A DNA stretch of 64,000 bases from NCBI GenBank assembly GCA_963706575.1, contig CAVPNL010000005.1:192001-256000 (forward strand), given 5' to 3'. A program made the position numbers. Within the stretch, counting starts at the first letter, position 1, and every line of letters begins with the position of its first letter. Source of the stretch: an uncultured delta proteobacterium (GTDB taxonomy: Bacteria; Desulfobacterota; Desulfobacteria; Desulfobacterales; JAHEIW01). Of this stretch, positions 42,401 through 48,400 are shown piece by piece.

Positions 42401-45400
42401 CAAGTCATAGAGTTTATAAAGACTGTCGATATTGATGTGTTCATCAGCAGAATGTTGGCTCATATCACCATCAGCTCCCCAGACAATGCCTTTGATGCCA
42501 TGGGCGGATAAAAAGCGGGCGTCACTGGCGCCATGCTCAAAACCGACTTCGCTGTCCTTTGCGATTTCCAGCAGCAGGTCCAGATAGGGGGAGTCACCGC
42601 CTTCAAACAGCGGCTCTTTTTTCTCGACCACCAGTTCTCCCTTAATTTCCTTCTGGATGTTTTTAAAAAGTGCTTCCAGGTCGTCGTTTTCCGTGTAGCG
42701 GATATCGAACAGGGCTTCGGCATAATCCGGGACCTGGTTGGAGACCTTGCCGGCCTGAATCCAGCTGAAATTTAAGGTGCGGTGCCAGTGATCCGGATCC
42801 GAAAGCTCAAAATTTGTCTTCAGCACCTGATAATCGTTGATGAGGTTTTCAATGGCATTCTCTCCCAGCCAGGGTCTTGCGCCGTGAGCGGTCTTGCCTC
42901 TGGCAATCAGCTTTAATTTAACAATGCCTTTTTCTTTGATAACAATTTTGTTTAGACCGCCGCCGTCTAAAGCAATACAAAACTCAGCTTTGATTTCTTT
43001 TAGCGCTTTCTGAGCCGTTAGCACCGCCGATCTCTTCATCAGCCGTGATGATAATACCGAAGGGCAGATCCTTCTGGTCTTTGCCTTCTTTTTGCAGTTG
43101 CTGCAGGTAGTTTTTTACGAAAACCAGGGATAAGGCAGCTGCATACTTGTCGTCGATGCTACCGCGGCCATACAGGGCGTCGCCCTTTACCCGGGGATTA
43201 AACAGGTCATCAGGGCCGTCGACCACATCGATATGGGACATCAGCAAGATGGGAGCAAAGTTACTTTGCGGCATAACGATAACAGACGGAATGTCAGCAT
43301 GATCCAGCCGCCTGTAAGTGGCACCGCACTGCTTTAAATAATCTTCAATAAACGACACACAGCGCTGAATTTCAGCAGGCTGAGAATGCATGGTTTTAAA
43401 GCGAATGAGATCCTCTGTCAACGTGACGAGTTCTTCCATTTTATAAACTTTTTACAGCAGCGATGACAGCCTCCACGGCGGTTTCGATGAACATTCTGCC
43501 CATATTGATGGTGAGATCATAATTTTCAGGATCGGATATATCGGCATTATAGGATTTTCTGATAAAAGCGCTGCGCCTTGATTCTCTACCAATCACGCGC
43601 TTCCTGGCTTCGGCAGACACTTTATAGGCGCGGGCCACATTTTGAATCCTTATTTCTAATGGGGCCACGATCCGCAAACTGAATCTTTCTTCAGGCGGGA
43701 GAATAAAATTGGCGCCCCGGCCGACAATTACCGCGCGCCCATGATTTGCAATCGTGTTGACAACCTTCACCAGATGTTCCATGTAGATACCGGGATAGAG
43801 ATATTGGTCTTTGTAAAGGGAGGCGATAAAATCCTCAACCCCCGAGAGTCGTTCTTTTTCAAGGGTATCGATGACCGAGGCCCGTATTTTGGCGCTTTTG
43901 GCGATTCCCTGGATAATGTCCCGGTGAAAATAATCAAAACCTAATCGATCGGCAACTTCCTGGGCCACAAGGCTGCCGCCGCTTCCAGGTTTCATGCTAA
44001 CTGTGATCACCGGAATATGGACTTCCGGCATGCGGTCTTTTTTCGGCAGGGCCGCTTTCCCATTTTCTGATTTGCTGCTTTACAAACTCCGCGATTGAAT
44101 TTTCTTTTGTGACCATTTTTTTCAGATTATTTTCCGGATGTGCTTTCCATGAAATGATAAAGCAATTTCTGCTCGTCGACTGCCGTGATTTCTTCAGGCA
44201 GCCGTTTCTCCGCCAGCGCGATAGCGGATTCAATCAGCTCTGATCGAATTAAATTTCTGGCCTCTACGATTTGGTTTTCGATTCTCTGCCGGGTACCAGC
44301 CAGCAAAATCATGCTTTCATGACGGGCGTCTTCAATGATACCTGTTTTCTCTTTTCGCCGTCCTCAATGATTCTCTTTTTTACGTTTTTAAAACGGGTGA
44401 TGCTGTTTTTAAGCACTTTGTTTGCTTCTTTAATTTTTTCTTCGGCCGCTTCTTTTTGCTGCTCAAATTTTTTGATCTGGTGATCGATCTCTTCTCTACG
44501 GTTCGAAAAAAAATCTTTTATCGGTTTTCTGCCAAACTTTACCAGGACAAACGCAATGATCGCGAAATTCAACCACCGCATCACCAGATCAAAAGTTGAT
44601 CGCCAGTCATCTGTGGTTTCGGCTGCAGGGCGTCAGTGCTGCCTAAAAGCAGCGCGACACAAACGGCGATCAAATAACAGCCGAAAAATGCGATAGGGTA
44701 ATTTTCCTCATGAATGCTGACTCCGATACAGGACCGCTTCGATAATATGTTTTGCCAGATCCTCAGATTCCTTTTGTACATGTTTTCTGGCTGCTGAGAT
44801 CTGGCTATCGACTTCCTTTTGGGCCTCGGCACTTAATGCGTTAATCTCTTCCCGGGTAGATGCGATTATTTCAGCAGCCTGCAGGCTGCCGGCGGCTTCC
44901 AGCTGTTCCTTTTGCTTAAAGGCTTCATTTCTGACAGCGTTTTCCTGCGCCTCTATCTGATGGGTTAAATCCTCAAACTGGTTTTCGGCTTCGACGATAT
45001 CTTTCTGGACATTTTCAACATAGGTTTCTCTTTCATTCATTAGCTTGCGCAGCGGACGGAACATGATCCGATTGATGATAAACAGAAAAATCAGAAAAGA
45101 GATGACCTGGACGATCAAGGTCTCATTTATGCTGATAAGCGCAATATTGCTGATAATTTCCATTGTCATTCGTCCAATAAGGTACTGTAATTCGGCCAAG
45201 ACCTTACGGCCCGATTCACCTCGGACGGATGAATCAGGAATCGGATTCAAGGCCCGCCGGAGAAATCTTCGGCGAGCTCGCCTCAAATATTCAAAACTGC
45301 GATCGGTTTAACTTAGACCACAAAAAGAGCAGCAAGGCGATAACCAGCGAATAAATTCCGGTGGACTCGGCAACGGCCTGGCCCACCAGCATGGTGCGGG

Positions 45401-48400
45401 TGAGCAGTCCGGCCTCCTGGGGATTTTTACCAATCGCCTCACAGGCCTTTGCGGCCACCATGCCTTCGCCGACGCCGGGGCCGATGGCCCCCAGCCCCAT
45501 CGAAATTCCAGCTCCGATAAATGCGGCTGCTTTGATGATATCCGCGCCTTCGATTGCCATTTTTAACCTCCTTGTAAAAATGTCTATTAAATTGATATCT
45601 GACTGAAGCCTTCAATACGGTTAAATTGCGGTTCGAAATTCCTAAATCACTAATCGGTAATCAGTCCAACATTACATTACACCACAAATATCAACACCAG
45701 GCTGATCACCATGGCATAAATCGCCGTCGACTGGGAAACCGCCTGTCCGACCAGCATGATTCGCATCAGGTCGCCGGCATGTTCGACGTTTCGTGCCACC
45801 CATCGCACAGCCCCTTCGGCTGCCATTCCGTTGCCGATTCCCGGACCAATGCCGCCGAATCCCATGCAGAGTCCGGCCGCCAAAAGGGCCATGGCGGCGC
45901 TCAGCGCGTGGACTCGGGAAATGACTTGAACATCAGGATGAAGCTGACCAGCAGCCCGAAGATCGAGGGGGTCTGGGCCACCGCCTGGCCGACCAGCATG
46001 GTCGTGGTCACGCTTGGCGACCGTTGCGGGTTCGGGCGATGCCCTCGCAGCTGGCGCCGGCCGCCAGTCCGCCTCCGTAGCCGGACCCGATGGATGCCAG
46101 CCCCATGCTCAAACCGGCGCCCAGATAGGCCGCCCATGTTGGGGTCAGCGGGGCATTCCGAAATTCGATGAATATCAGCATCAGGGCCACAACCATGGAA
46201 AAGATGGCCGGCGTCTGGCAGACCGCCGATCCGATCAGCATATTGGTCGTCAATTGGGAGGACGCTGCCGGTTGTCTGCGAGATTCCGAAACAGGCCTCT
46301 CCGGCCGGATAGCCTGAGCCGATGCCCGAGCCGATGGCCCCGAAGCCCATACTCAGATCCGGCCCCGAAAAGCGCTGCGGCTTTTAACAGGCTGGGTTGG
46401 CGATGTCCATAAACAGCAGCAGGATGGCGATCACCAGGGCGAAAATGGACGCCGATTCGGCCACCGCCTGTCCCACCAGCATGTTTTTAAAGATTTCGCC
46501 GGAAATTTCCGTGTTCCGGGAAACGGCAATATTGGCCATGGCCGCGGTGTGGCCTTCGCCGATCGCGGCCCCGATGGCGCCAAATCCCATCGCAAAACCG
46601 CCTCCGGTATAGGCGGCCACTTTTACGATGGTTTGAATATCAATTGCCATGGCGTCATTTTACCTGCACTGATATGTAGACAACCGTTAGCATCGTAAAT
46701 ACAAAGGCCTGAATGGTGCCGACGAAAAGTCCGAAAAAACGCGTATAAGAAAGGGCGGCAGCGACAACATTGTATGACGAGGTGGGAAACCACCAGGATA
46801 ATGATCGATCCGCCCATGATGTTGCCGAACAGTCGAAAGGATATCGATACGATTTTTGCCAGTTCGCCGATGACATTGAGCGGCATCATAAAAAATATCG
46901 GCTGGAAATATTCCTTGATATAGGCCTTAAACCCCTTGGATTTTATGCCGGCGTAATGGGCGATAAAAAAGCCCATCAGGCCCAGTCCGAGGGTCGTATT
47001 CAGATCTTTGGTCGGTTCGTCCAGATGCGGAATGATGCCCAGCCAGTTGGAAAGCAGCAGAAACAGAAAGAGCGCACAGATGGGGGGCGTAGGTTTTGGC
47101 CAGCTCCTTGCCCAGCGCATCTTCGGTAAGATCGTATAGAAGGGATACGATCAGTTCCCCCAGGGCCTGGATGGGTCGGGGCAGGATTTTTCTTTTGCGG
47201 GCAAACAGCCCGAGCACGATCAGGATCGAAAAAACGATCCAGGTCATCACGATAACTTCAAGATTGATGGTGATGTTGTGGCCGAAGAAAGGAATTATCA
47301 GTTGGTGTAATCTCCCAAGTTCGCCCATAAAAATATCCGTTTAAGCCTGTTTTTTCCCCATTGCGGGAATAAGGATTAATGCATGTTCGGCCAGAATGAC
47401 CAGCTGAATCATAAAGATGCCCATGATGGCTGCGACCAGATTAAACTGTTCGTACTTGACGGCTGCGATCAGCGGGATCGCCAGCAAAAGGTATCTGATA
47501 ATGATGGACCCCATGGAAATCGAAAAGGTTTTGGCCTTTGACCGGCCAAACCTCAACGCTATGGATTTACCCATTAGAATAAAATTGAGCACACTGAAAA
47601 TAGCACCCAGGATCAATCCTTTGCCCAGCGGTTTATGTCCCATCAGGATAAACACTATCCCGACACCGATGGAAAAGGTTAATGCCAGCGTCGTGTATTT
47701 TTTTTGGGCTTGCTTAACGGCGTCCATTTGTTGAATCTTTTTTGTTCTCCGGCGGGGTTTTAAGGGTTTCTGAAATTTGCCGGTAGACGGTGACGGCACC
47801 GCCGACGATGCCTAGGATGATAAAAAGGGTGACAAATATTCCTCTGGTTCCCAACCATTTGTCCAGATACAATCCGATAAAAAAACAAAAAACGATGCAA
47901 CCGGCCATTGTCAGGCCGATTTGCATGACGATTGAAAGGCTCTCGGCCCAGGCTCGGTTTTTTTTATAATTAAAAACCATTGTCCATAAAGATTCATTGA
48001 AACTAAGGAACATGTTTAAAACGTATTCGATTAGCATAGCAACAAGATCTTTGCAAGCGAATTCCCACCGCACAGTGGGCACAAAACCACCCTTGACAGT
48101 GACGGGTGTGTTCCTATAATCATTAATATAATTTGGCTGACGAATTCAATCCGGTGATCAAGGCCTCATCATGGAAGGAATGAATGCAATTCCGGTTCTC
48201 AATCTGTTTTCCCTTTGAATCCTATTACCTTAACATTTAAGGAGGGCATTTATTATGGGAAATATCTATAAATATTTGGCCGTATTCCTCGGCGTACTGC
48301 TGGTATCGGGCGGTTTTGCATGGGCCGATTCTCAACCGCCTGCCGTAGGCGGTGTGCTGCCCGAATTTACACTTCCCGTACCCCAAAGCGATGAGTACCA

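What a model noticed while it worked through the whole genome (the two positions that open the first line are those of the whole stretch)
45291..46650. F-type ATP synthase with a fused four-hairpin c subunit that keeps only one ion-binding glutamate
The only F0 operon (atpI, a, c..., b, b') holds, between subunit a and a normal one-hairpin c gene (g02049), four tandem c-subunit hairpins (g02052, g02051, g02050 and uncalled pieces). In relatives the same stretch is one uninterrupted 324-aa gene: an eight-helix c subunit in which only hairpin 1 has the ion-carrying Glu (AVAES) and hairpins 2-4 have Gln. With the single-hairpin c (AVSES) this predicts a hybrid F-type rotor with far fewer ion sites than hairpins, i.e. 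a very low ion/ATP ratio. Bacterial F-type c subunits with more than two hairpins have not been described.
Evidence so far: Six-frame reading of C5:237200-239400 shows E,Q,Q,Q,E at the carboxylate position. Genus mate locus: atpI-a(224)-c4(324 aa, one ORF)-c1(82)-b; hairpin alignment. 34 of 60 other Desulfobacterales genomes (one per family) have an uninterrupted multi-hairpin gene, open frames 324-492 aa, no stops. Protein database: 2315 relatives at E<=1e-20; of the best 120, 58 are EQQQ (324 aa), 45 EQQQQ (~405 aa), 13 six-hairpin (~485 aa), all named only 'F0 subunit c'. This genome's stretch is colinear with the genus mate's gene over all 975 nt but has seven single-base indels, mostly compensating pairs. 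F1 genes on C4:142332-147953; no V/A-type ATPase.
(Added by a program. Inside this text positions count along the whole contig: contig position 192,001 is position 1 of the stretch shown here. "Call 12" and the like, gene names such as g00115 and contig names such as C1 are that model's own, and its searches are not shown. The text may have been shortened before it was handed on; [...] marks where a part breaks off. The agent that wrote the report below was given it as the finding of a first reader that could run no searches.)

Follow-up and report, generated by a model that had tools for sequence, protein, structure and literature searches.

The report
Four-hairpin ATP synthase rotor subunit
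The cell's only ATP synthase carries, beside the normal rotor protein, a fused rotor protein of four hairpins of which only the first can carry an ion, a design that should make ATP with fewer sodium ions and is common in sulfate-reducing relatives.

Summary
On the minus strand, window 44127-48082 is the genome's only Fo operon: atpZ-like, atpI, a, a four-hairpin c region (45677-46650), a one-hairpin c (45291-45560), b' and b. The carboxylate position reads E,Q,Q,Q, then E.

In this assembly the four-hairpin gene is cut by five single-base indels, not seven. Read through them, it is 84% identical to the intact 324-aa gene of a genus mate, with dN/dS of 0.06-0.12. I read the breaks as most likely assembly errors.

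In relatives the gene is uninterrupted and always followed by the one-hairpin c. The phylum holds a series E(Q)1-5, plus forms ending in a further E hairpin.

Two new lines of evidence bear on function:
- A hairpin keeps the Ser-Thr..Tyr half of a Na+ site only when the next hairpin, or the next chain, carries Glu. That fits the hairpins lying side by side in a ring and sharing sites.
- The fused gene starts 0-5 nt after the atpB stop, with no good Shine-Dalgarno. The single c has a strong one in 70 of 70 loci. This suggests few fused and many single subunits per ring.

It is an expanded version of the Acetobacterium woodii hybrid rotor. Stoichiometry and the ion are inferred. "Very low ion/ATP" is not shown.

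The parts
47714..48082 (-). ORF holding an atpZ-like small membrane protein (PF09527, ATPase_gene1). The likely start is internal, giving about 88 aa.
   Evidence: ORF. The G004 homologue (88 aa) matches PF09527 at E 1.3e-16.
47341..47799 (-). atpI (PF03899), 152 aa, intact
   Evidence: 68% identical to the G004 AtpI, one frame.
46655..47328 (-). atpB, Fo subunit a, with two frame changes in this assembly
   Evidence: One search finds three PF00119 pieces. One search places the G004 a subunit (224 aa) on frames -2, -3 and -1. The stator Arg motif SFRLFGN is present.
45677..46650 (-). Four-hairpin c subunit gene (c4), pattern E,Q,Q,Q, 974 nt against 975 nt in relatives. It has five single-base indels: deletions at 46397, 46030 and 45909, and insertions at 46357 and 46277. 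Its ATG lies 4 nt after the atpB stop.
45561..45676 (-). Spacer between c4 and c1 (116 nt). It holds the Shine-Dalgarno AAGGAGGT at 45566-45573, 5 nt before the c1 start codon.
   Evidence: Sequence. The same contrast in SD strength is seen in 70 of 70 relatives' loci. Promoter and terminator scans give no more than chance.
45291..45560 (-). One-hairpin c subunit (c1) with Glu in helix 1 (GEG) and ESTGIY in helix 2. Its C-terminus is aberrant here (LLLFLWSKLNRSQF against LLLLFVV in 32 relatives), which points to an indel in a run of T.
44708..45163 (-). Fo subunit b' (PF00430), intact
   Evidence: (71% identical to the G004 b', one frame).
44127..44703 (-). Fo subunit b (PF00430), with two frame changes in this assembly
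   Evidence: (three pieces in frames -2, -1 and -3).

Best explanation
The region encodes a real rotor subunit of the cell's only F1Fo ATP synthase. It is one polypeptide of four c hairpins (eight helices).

Only hairpin 1 has the residues that hold an ion: Glu in helix 1 and Glu in helix 2. Hairpins 2-4 have Gln at the helix-2 position and cannot carry an ion. Hairpin 4 keeps Ser-Thr..Tyr. In solved Na+ rings, at least the Ser on this face and a backbone carbonyl complete the site of the neighbouring hairpin.

The protein most likely assembles with many copies of the one-hairpin c encoded next to it into one mixed ring. Each fused subunit then adds four hairpins but only one Na+ site. The enzyme would turn with fewer Na+ per revolution than a ring of the same size built from single hairpins, and so with fewer Na+ per ATP. 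The principle is that of the A. woodii F/V-hybrid rotor, with three inert hairpins instead of one.

The number of inert hairpins varies from 1 to 5 among relatives. It grows by tandem duplication of the second hairpin, so it looks like an evolvable setting of the coupling ratio.

Shown: the gene, its intactness in relatives, its fold by prediction, the residue patterns and the translation signals.

Inferred: co-assembly with c1, Na+ as the coupling ion, about one fused subunit per ring, and the ratio itself. As an illustration only, 8 Na+ per turn, or 2.7 per ATP, if the ring had 11 hairpins like its closest solved relatives.

The five frame breaks in this window are most likely assembly errors.
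For: 1. Gene and context.
- It is the sole c, a and F1 gene set and no V-type subunit I was found.

2. Intact and under selection.
- Uninterrupted frames of 324-325 aa occur in genus mates and across the order.
- The frame-corrected window reading is 273 of 324 aa identical to G004. Its dN/dS is 0.057-0.117 against eight relatives, and 0.038-0.131 among the intact genes themselves.

3. Always paired with c1.
- 75 of 80 loci have a one-hairpin c after the fused gene.
- In the other five the locus stops within the fused gene or at most 252 nt after it.
- The same pairing holds in 17 of the 20 further loci from other families. The three without it (L099-L118: L100, L111, L114) have an EE form or a fused gene cut short.

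4. Site-sharing rule, over 217 distinct multi-hairpin proteins.
- Among hairpins followed by a Gln hairpin, Tyr70 is kept in 0 of 215 Glu hairpins and 1 of 484 Gln hairpins.
- Among last hairpins, whose neighbour is another chain, 201 of 207 Gln hairpins and 10 of 10 Glu hairpins keep Ser-Thr..Tyr.
- Among Gln hairpins followed in-chain by Glu, 7 of 10 keep Tyr. The exceptions are listed.
- The rule holds across the EQ, EQQ, EQQQ, EQQQQ, EQQQQQ, EQE, EQQE and EQQQE forms.
- The solved A. woodii c1 shows the same pattern: AETSGIF, then AQTTGIY.
- In the F. nucleatum ring, Ser66 and the Val63 carbonyl come from the adjacent subunit (PMC3692424, passages).

5. Na+ signature. c1 matches the F. nucleatum and I. 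tartaricus c subunits at E32/Q32, V63, E65, S66, T67 and Y70. Of 77 single c proteins, 74 read E..EST..Y.

6. Stoichiometry hint.
- The SD of c1 is stronger than that of the fused gene in 70 of 70 loci, with medians of -11.8 and -3.8 kcal/mol.
- The fused gene starts 0-5 nt after the atpB stop in 64 of 70 loci and overlaps it by 4 nt in one more.

7. Fold. The AF2 model of the G004 c4 has pLDDT 94.8 and pTM 0.91, with eight helices. Its best PDB match is A. woodii c1, 4BEM_J, which covers only half of it (TMq 0.44).

8. Hairpin duplication. The extra hairpins of the 5- and 6-hairpin forms are 60-78% identical to hairpin 2 and to each other. Other hairpin pairs are 36-56% identical.

9. Complex prediction. 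For c4 with two c1 the verdict is weak support: score 0.57, best of 3 controls 0.00. That mark was reached by 116 of 157 solved complexes and 2 of 215 mismatched pairs. At 0.60 or under, only 18 of the 157 solved complexes reached it, along with both mismatches that passed. The runs agree in at least 96% of contacts and the partner's pLDDT is at least 78. A like complex (4BEM) is solved, so the pass may reflect likeness alone.
Against: - No biochemical, proteomic or RNA evidence was available. The ring composition, ring size and coupling ion are all inferred.
- The residue rule cannot tell c4 next to c1 from c4 next to c4.
- In Bacillus PS3, a single E56Q in a fused c10 ring abolished ATP synthesis (PMC8809890, passage citing Mitome 2004). 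An arc of three consecutive uncharged hairpins passing the stator arginine is therefore not covered by current models.
- The window's own copy carries five frame breaks. The Fo operon holds about 10 frame changes in 3.2 kb. Ten other genes of the window, 11.3 kb in all, hold 6. The F1 genes show none. This excess is unexplained.
- dN/dS over a long branch (dS above 1) would not reveal a recent loss of function.
- The sequences in the residue counts are related to one another, so the counts overstate independence.
Confidence: 0.7

Rival explanations
1. The ring is built mainly or only of the fused subunit. Three c4, for example, would give 12 hairpins with 3 sites. The enzyme would then have about 1 ion per ATP and would work as an ATP-driven Na+ pump like a V-ATPase. 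Alternatively the cell makes two kinds of ring. This is the strong form of the first reader's 'very low ratio'.
For: Hairpin 4's Ser-Thr..Tyr face could complete hairpin 1's site on a second c4 just as well as a site on c1. The predicted fold is an arc of four hairpins.
Against: The one-hairpin c is kept next to the fused gene in every locus long enough to show it, and with the stronger ribosome-binding site in 70 of 70 loci. This is the genome's only ATP synthase. A respiring sulfate reducer is expected to need one that can synthesise ATP, which is established reasoning and was not tested here.
Confidence: 0.12
2. The fused protein is not a working rotor part. It could be an assembly template or chaperone for the c-ring, a regulator, or a membrane protein with another role.
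For: No experiment ties it to the ring. Three of its four hairpins lack the carboxylate. atp operons do carry assembly factors, and atpI is named as one for A. woodii in PMC7911925 (passage).
Against: The neighbour-dependent conservation of Ser-Thr..Tyr on the last hairpin, and of both Glu on the first, is what a shared ion site in a ring predicts. The closest solved protein, A. woodii c1, sits in the ring (PMC9171764, passage).
Confidence: 0.08
3. In this particular genome the frame breaks are real, and the Fo operon (a, c4, b) is decaying.
For: There are five indels in c4, two frame changes each in a and b, and one at the end of c1. That density is about six times that of other compared genes in the window. 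No sequencing run of the organism itself could be laid. The one run found holds only relatives.
Against: This is the only Fo operon, and the F1 genes are open. Each frame piece stays highly conserved, with no in-frame nonsense codon or larger deletion. Five of ten other genes compared in the window also show frame changes, as does an RnfD-family gene on another contig. Indels are therefore a property of the assembly. The c1 break lies in a run of T.
Confidence: 0.07

Closest known systems
Acetobacterium woodii (and Clostridium aceticum) Na+ F1Fo ATP synthase with an F/V-hybrid rotor: c1 (two hairpins, one site) plus c2/c3 (PDB 4BEM)
   Same: - The multi-hairpin c gene lies directly before a one-hairpin c gene in an F-type atp operon.
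- The first hairpin keeps the site and a later hairpin has Gln at the carboxylate position.
- The same F/Y pattern holds at position 70.
- It is the best sequence and fold match.
- The Na+ motif is present.
- The literature gives 9 single subunits plus 1 double, n = 3.3 (PMC9171764 and PMC5662883, passages; PMC7911925).
   Different: - There are four hairpins here, and 2-6 in relatives, with three consecutive inert ones instead of one.
- Helix 1 carries Glu (GEG, as in F. nucleatum) rather than Gln.
- The inert middle hairpins carry Q-T-P with a proline.
- The F1 genes are in a separate operon.
- The hosts are sulfate-reducing Desulfobacterota, not acetogenic Firmicutes.
Archaeal A1Ao c subunits with 2, 3 or 13 hairpins (named in PMC9171764 and in bioRxiv 10.64898/2026.10.01.756066, passages)
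   Same: Hairpins are multiplied within one polypeptide, in some cases with loss of sites. This is read as a way to change the ion/ATP ratio.
   Different: Those belong to A/V-type enzymes. Here the operon, subunit a, b/b', delta and the sequence affinities are all F-type. The pattern of one site followed by a run of inert hairpins is different.
Fusobacterium nucleatum and Ilyobacter tartaricus Na+ c11 rings (3ZK1, 1YCE)
   Same: The one-hairpin c here has the same ligand set, including the second carboxylate of F. nucleatum: GEG...V-x-E-S-T..Y (PMC3692424, passages).
   Different: Those rings are homomeric.
Engineered fused c subunits (Bacillus PS3 c10; E. coli c2/c3)
   Same: They show that covalently linked hairpins can form a working F-type ring (PMC8809890, passages).
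   Different: They are artificial. In that H+ enzyme one E56Q hairpin stopped ATP synthesis, whereas here three to five Gln hairpins are the conserved natural state.
V-ATPase / Enterococcus hirae NtpK proteolipids
   Same: They have two hairpins per chain with one site, and give weaker fold matches (TMt about 0.8 over about 150 residues).
   Different: Sequence matches are far weaker (E 1e-5 against 1e-23 for 4BEM_J). No V-type subunit I was found in the genome.

Membership tests
F-type ATP synthase subunit c (PF00137, AtpE) | Helix-loop-helix hairpin that matches the family profile | tested here: met
   The G004 protein gives four stretches, 196 bits in total. In the window, six PF00137 pieces all lie at C5:237327-238605.
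F-type ATP synthase subunit c (PF00137, AtpE) | Ion-carrying carboxylate in the middle of helix 2 of each hairpin | tested here: not met
   It is present in hairpin 1 only. Hairpins 2-4 have Gln. The protein is a member by homology, but three of its four hairpins lack the functional residue.
F-type ATP synthase subunit c (PF00137, AtpE) | Gene lies between subunit a and subunit b in an Fo operon, with F1 genes including delta in the genome | tested here: met
A. woodii-type F/V-hybrid rotor | A multi-hairpin c with fewer sites than hairpins, encoded next to a one-hairpin c in an F-type operon | tested here: met
   75 of 80 loci.
A. woodii-type F/V-hybrid rotor | The multi-hairpin subunit has two hairpins (16-18 kDa, 'V-type') | tested here: not met
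   There are four hairpins here. Relatives have 2, 3, 4, 5 or 6.
A. woodii-type F/V-hybrid rotor | Both subunit kinds sit in one ring, shown for A. woodii by its crystal structure | not testable with these tools
   Only indirect evidence is available: the residue rule and a weak complex prediction (score 0.57, best control 0.00).
A. woodii-type F/V-hybrid rotor | Na+ as the coupling ion | tested here: inconclusive
   The full Na+ ligand motif is present by alignment to 3ZK1 and 1YCE. No measurement exists.
V/A-type ATPase proteolipid | Part of a V/A-type gene set with subunit I/a (PF01496) | tested here: not met
   No PF01496 match in the genome, which is 92% complete. The flanking genes are F-type a and b.
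N-ATPase (atpDCQRBEFAG) | One operon with the F1 genes and no delta, found beside a second, ordinary ATP synthase | tested here: not met
   The F1 genes lie on another contig and include delta. Only one set of a and c genes is present.

The most novel reading that the evidence does not exclude
Desulfobacterota carry a natural 'gearbox' in their only ATP synthase. A single rotor subunit holds one Na+ site followed by an adjustable run of one to five dead hairpins, made by tandem duplication. The run lowers the Na+/ATP ratio in steps of one third, toward about 2. The rotor must carry an arc of up to five uncharged hairpins past the stator arginine without ion input. Current F-type models and the PS3 E56Q result say that should not work. 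It would imply elastic or phase-locked coupling, with the dead arc fixed relative to the central stalk.
Probability: 0.3. Interest if true: 0.88.

Novelty: new variant of a known kind. Interest (0 to 1): 0.72.

Why it matters
The ion/ATP ratio sets how much ATP a cell gets from a given ion gradient, and how small an energy quantum it can live on. Known F-type enzymes change the ratio through ring size. A. woodii does it with one inert hairpin.

A family with one to five inert hairpins would give a graded natural series for two questions. How many inert positions can a rotor tolerate? How low can the ratio go? The family occurs in more than half of the sampled Desulfobacterales and in at least one cultured species with a complete genome (Desulfosarcina widdelii PP31).

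It also bears on the energy budgets assumed for marine sulfate reducers. In databases these proteins are named only 'F0 subunit c', so automated annotation hides the feature.

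Tried and rejected
- **Sequencing runs.** One sediment run was listed, holding 5% of the sampled words, and no RNA holder was listed. 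Laid at 85% likeness, it gave only short contigs of relatives (0 at 99% or more, 1 at 95-99%). It says nothing about the five indels or about expression.
- **Promoter and terminator scan of 44000-48600.** It found 5 and 5 sites, against 5.4 and 5.4 expected by chance. There is no usable signal for a separate c1 promoter.
- **Papers not held.** Matthies 2014 and Brandt & Muller 2015. The geometry of the A. woodii ring and the review's survey of hybrid rotors could therefore not be read. The supplements of the papers I did use were not opened.
- **N-ATPase and V/A-type readings.** Both were considered and rejected (see the membership tests).
- **Foldseek against the PDB.** No solved chain covers more than two of the four hairpins.
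- **ESM Atlas.** It returned only 'ATP synthase subunit c' clusters of Thermodesulfobacteriota, which adds nothing.
- **RnfD/NqrB-family gene in the genome.** It exists. It fits a Na+ economy only weakly and is not used as evidence.

Full report
**What is in the window**

The minus strand of 44127-48082 carries an Fo operon, in this order:
- an atpZ-like gene (ORF 47714-48082)
- atpI (47341-47799)
- atpB, subunit a (46655-47328)
- a region of four c hairpins (45677-46650)
- a 116-nt spacer
- a one-hairpin c gene (45291-45560)
- b' (44708-45163)
- b (44127-44703)

The ORF list shows the key motifs directly:
- hairpin 1: GEG...AVAESASIF
- hairpin 2: AVCQTPAIF
- hairpin 3: AVAQTPSIF
- hairpin 4: GNG...AVSQSTAIY
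- single c: GEG...AVAESTGIY

**The only ATP synthase of the genome**

PF00137 (subunit c) and PF00119 (subunit a) match only at this locus. PF01496 (V-type subunit I) has no match in a genome that is 92% complete. Single genes for delta, alpha, gamma and beta lie together on contig 4. This is an ordinary F-type gene set split into an Fo and an F1 operon. It is not an N-ATPase and not a V/A-type enzyme.

**The breaks**

A single-frame translation of the four-hairpin region runs into stops. Aligned with the intact genes of eight relatives, the window has five single-base indels, a net of -1 base (the pair alignment is). They are deletions at 46397, 46030 and 45909 and insertions at 46357 and 46277.

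Read through these breaks, the protein is 273 of 324 residues identical to the genus mate's. It keeps E,Q,Q,Q. Its dN/dS against eight relatives is 0.057-0.117, within the range seen among the intact genes themselves (0.038-0.131).

Frame changes are also common elsewhere in this assembly:
- two each in subunits a and b, and one in the next gene downstream
- a frameshifted end of c1 in a run of T
- five of ten other genes compared in the window
- an RnfD-family gene on another contig

I therefore read the breaks as assembly errors. Two caveats remain. The Fo operon holds about ten frame changes in 3.2 kb, against six in 11.3 kb for the other compared genes and none in the F1 genes. I cannot explain that excess. 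Also, dN/dS over so long a branch would not show a recent loss. No run of the organism itself was available to settle it.

**Relatives**

The genus mate G004 has atpZ(88)-atpI(155)-a(224)-c4(324 aa, one ORF)-c1(82)-b'(151)-b(195), all intact. Its c4 is four PF00137 domains.

The large protein collection gives 2320 relatives at E<=1e-10, among 8000 candidates scored. The best 120 divide as follows:
- 59 EQQQ (320-324 aa)
- 45 EQQQQ (402-406 aa)
- 13 EQQQQQ and 2 EQQQQE (481-490 aa)
- 1 odd protein of 434 aa

Where a source names them, the name is only 'F0 subunit c'.

In an even sample of the order, 68 of 121 genomes (G000 included) match at E<=1e-20. One of these matches only at the level of a single hairpin. 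Most hits are open frames of about 325 aa without stops.

In a sample of the phylum, 29 of 301 genomes match at E<=1e-30, 25 of them outside the order. Twenty of those and of the order's unusual loci were fetched. They show EQ (160-162 aa), EE, EQQ (236-244 aa), EQQQ, and forms ending in a working hairpin (EQE, EQQE, EQQQE). A one-hairpin c lies beside the fused gene in 17 of the 20; the other three are an EE form and two fused genes cut short.

Named carriers include Desulfosarcina widdelii PP31, which has a complete genome, and an Olavius symbiont.

In the 5- and 6-hairpin forms the extra hairpins are 60-78% identical to hairpin 2 and to each other. Other hairpin pairs are 36-56% identical. 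The series therefore grows by tandem duplication of an inert hairpin.

**Evidence that the hairpins sit side by side in a ring and share ion sites**

In solved Na+ rings a site is built from two neighbours. Glu32/Gln32 and Glu65 come from one hairpin. Ser66 and the Val63 carbonyl come from the adjacent one, and Thr67 and Tyr70 complete the network (PMC3692424, passages).

I tabulated these positions over 217 distinct multi-hairpin proteins:

| Position of the hairpin | Result |
|---|---|
| Glu hairpin followed by a Gln hairpin | Tyr70 kept in 0 of 215 |
| Gln hairpin followed by a Gln hairpin | Tyr70 kept in 1 of 484 |
| Last hairpin, Gln (neighbour is another chain) | Ser-Thr..Tyr kept in 201 of 207 |
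| Last hairpin, Glu | Ser-Thr..Tyr kept in 10 of 10 |
| Gln hairpin followed in-chain by a Glu hairpin | Tyr kept in 7 of 10 |

The exceptions are truncated proteins, two EQQQQE proteins and one QST..S.

Helix-1 Glu goes with helix-2 Glu: 207 of 226 Glu hairpins have it, and the Gln hairpins have S, N, G or A there.

So the first hairpin keeps its own half of a site and has lost the half it would lend to hairpin 2. The last hairpin has lost its own half but keeps the half it lends to the next chain. The solved A. woodii c1 has the same pattern, AETSGIF then AQTTGIY.

The proteins counted are related to one another, so the numbers overstate independence. Still, the rule holds across eight architectures. 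It does not tell whether the next chain is c1 or another c4.

**Ion**

The one-hairpin c aligns with the F. nucleatum and I. tartaricus subunits with every Na+ ligand in place, including the second carboxylate of F. nucleatum. Of 77 single c proteins from the loci, 74 read E..EST..Y. Na+ coupling is therefore likely, but it has not been measured.

**How many per ring**

In 64 of 70 loci the fused gene starts 0-5 nt after the stop of atpB, and in one more it overlaps that stop by 4 nt. Its Shine-Dalgarno pairing is poor, with a median of -3.8 kcal/mol. The single c has a canonical AGGAGG, with a median of -11.8 kcal/mol, and it is the stronger of the two in 70 of 70 loci.

The window shows the same arrangement: the c4 ATG lies 4 nt after the atpB stop, and AAGGAGGT lies 5 nt before the c1 start.

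Subunit a is present once per enzyme, which is established knowledge. Translational coupling to it suggests about one fused subunit per ring, with many single ones, as in A. woodii (nine plus one; PMC9171764, passage). This is inference.

If the ring had 11 hairpins, like its closest solved relatives, one c4 would leave 8 sites, or 2.7 Na+ per ATP. The 5- and 6-hairpin forms would leave 7 and 6. The ring size is unknown.

**Structure**

AlphaFold2 with 38 sequences gives eight helices at pLDDT 94.8 and pTM 0.91. The helices kink at the Q-T-P motifs of hairpins 2 and 3. Foldseek's best PDB match is A. woodii c1 (4BEM_J), which covers only half of the model (TMq 0.44). No solved chain covers more than two hairpins.

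A complex prediction of c4 with two c1 gave weak support. The score was 0.57 and the best of three controls 0.00. That mark was reached by 116 of 157 solved complexes and 2 of 215 mismatches. At 0.60 or under, only 18 of the 157 solved complexes reached it, along with both mismatches that passed. The runs agree in at least 96% of contacts and the partner's pLDDT is at least 78. A like complex is solved, so this may reflect likeness alone.

**What it is like, and what is new**

It works like the A. woodii and C. aceticum hybrid rotor. There, a two-hairpin c1 keeps the Na+ site in hairpin 1 and has Gln in hairpin 2 (PMC7911925, passages). That loss of a site is read as an adaptation to low energy (PMC9171764, passages).

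This case differs in having three consecutive inert hairpins, one to five across the family. It also differs in the two-carboxylate motif and in the host group.

That an inert arc is tolerated is not trivial. In the fused c10 of Bacillus PS3 a single E56Q stopped ATP synthesis (PMC8809890, passage).

**Literature**

Ten full-text searches were run, and I read passages of eight papers bearing on this question. They name only the two-hairpin case for bacterial F-type enzymes.
- A preprint of October 2026 on the evolution of rotary ATPases says F-type rings are 'predominantly' single hairpins and cites only A. woodii.
- A 2026 paper on Desulfatiglandales notes two to four atpE copies and cites Brandt & Muller 2015 for multiple atpE copies in Rnf-dependent anaerobes.

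That review and Matthies 2014 are not held. I cannot exclude that forms with more than two hairpins were listed there.

**Verdict**

The feature is real. It is a new variant of a known kind. Its function is well constrained by sequence logic but untested at the bench.

Noticed in passing
proteins P0246, P0295-P0411 (not in the window): There is a second, unrelated-looking family of four-hairpin F0 c subunits, about 320 aa long and 28-32% identical to the one here. Of its 120 best members, 69 read E,Q,E,D, 45 read E,Q,E,E and 4 read D,Q,E,D; 435 proteins match at E<=1e-20. Of the three members that carry an organism name, two (P0325, P0341) come from Candidatus Dependentiae MAGs. One full-text search for Dependentiae with ATP synthase subunit c found nothing relevant.
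   Followed up: partly
proteins P0155, P0186, P0193, P0221, P0226 (not in the window): Some single polypeptides consist of 7 to 15 c hairpins that all carry Glu. They are 1139 aa with 15 hairpins and 631 aa with 8 hairpins in Promethearchaeota/Hodarchaeota MAGs, 968 aa with 12 hairpins and 784 aa with 10 hairpins in unnamed sources, and 524 aa with 7 hairpins in Candidatus Gracilibacteria.
   Followed up: partly
window 43441-47328 against the rest of the window and contig 4: Frame changes are about six times denser in the Fo operon (about 10 in 3.2 kb) than in ten other compared genes of the window (6 in 11.3 kb). The F1 genes on contig 4 show none. The cause is unknown.
   Followed up: partly
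window 45291-45330: The one-hairpin c ends ...LLLFLWSKLNRSQF here, against ...LLLLFVV in 32 relatives. This points to extra T's in a run of T just before the normal stop.
   Followed up: partly
G000 contig C18:123539-124457: The genome has one RnfD/NqrB-family gene (PF03116), split into two frames. An Rnf or Nqr complex is therefore probably present.
   Followed up: no
L079:3986-4957 and L116:1488-2459; P0123: Some 324-aa four-hairpin proteins read E,Q,Q,E, with the last hairpin a fully equipped EST..Y unit. The same length class therefore holds forms with one site and forms with two.
   Followed up: no
L100:1565-2044: A two-hairpin c in which both hairpins are fully equipped (E,E; VAESTGIY twice) lies next to a one-hairpin c. 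This is a fusion without loss of a site, and possibly the starting point of the series.
   Followed up: no
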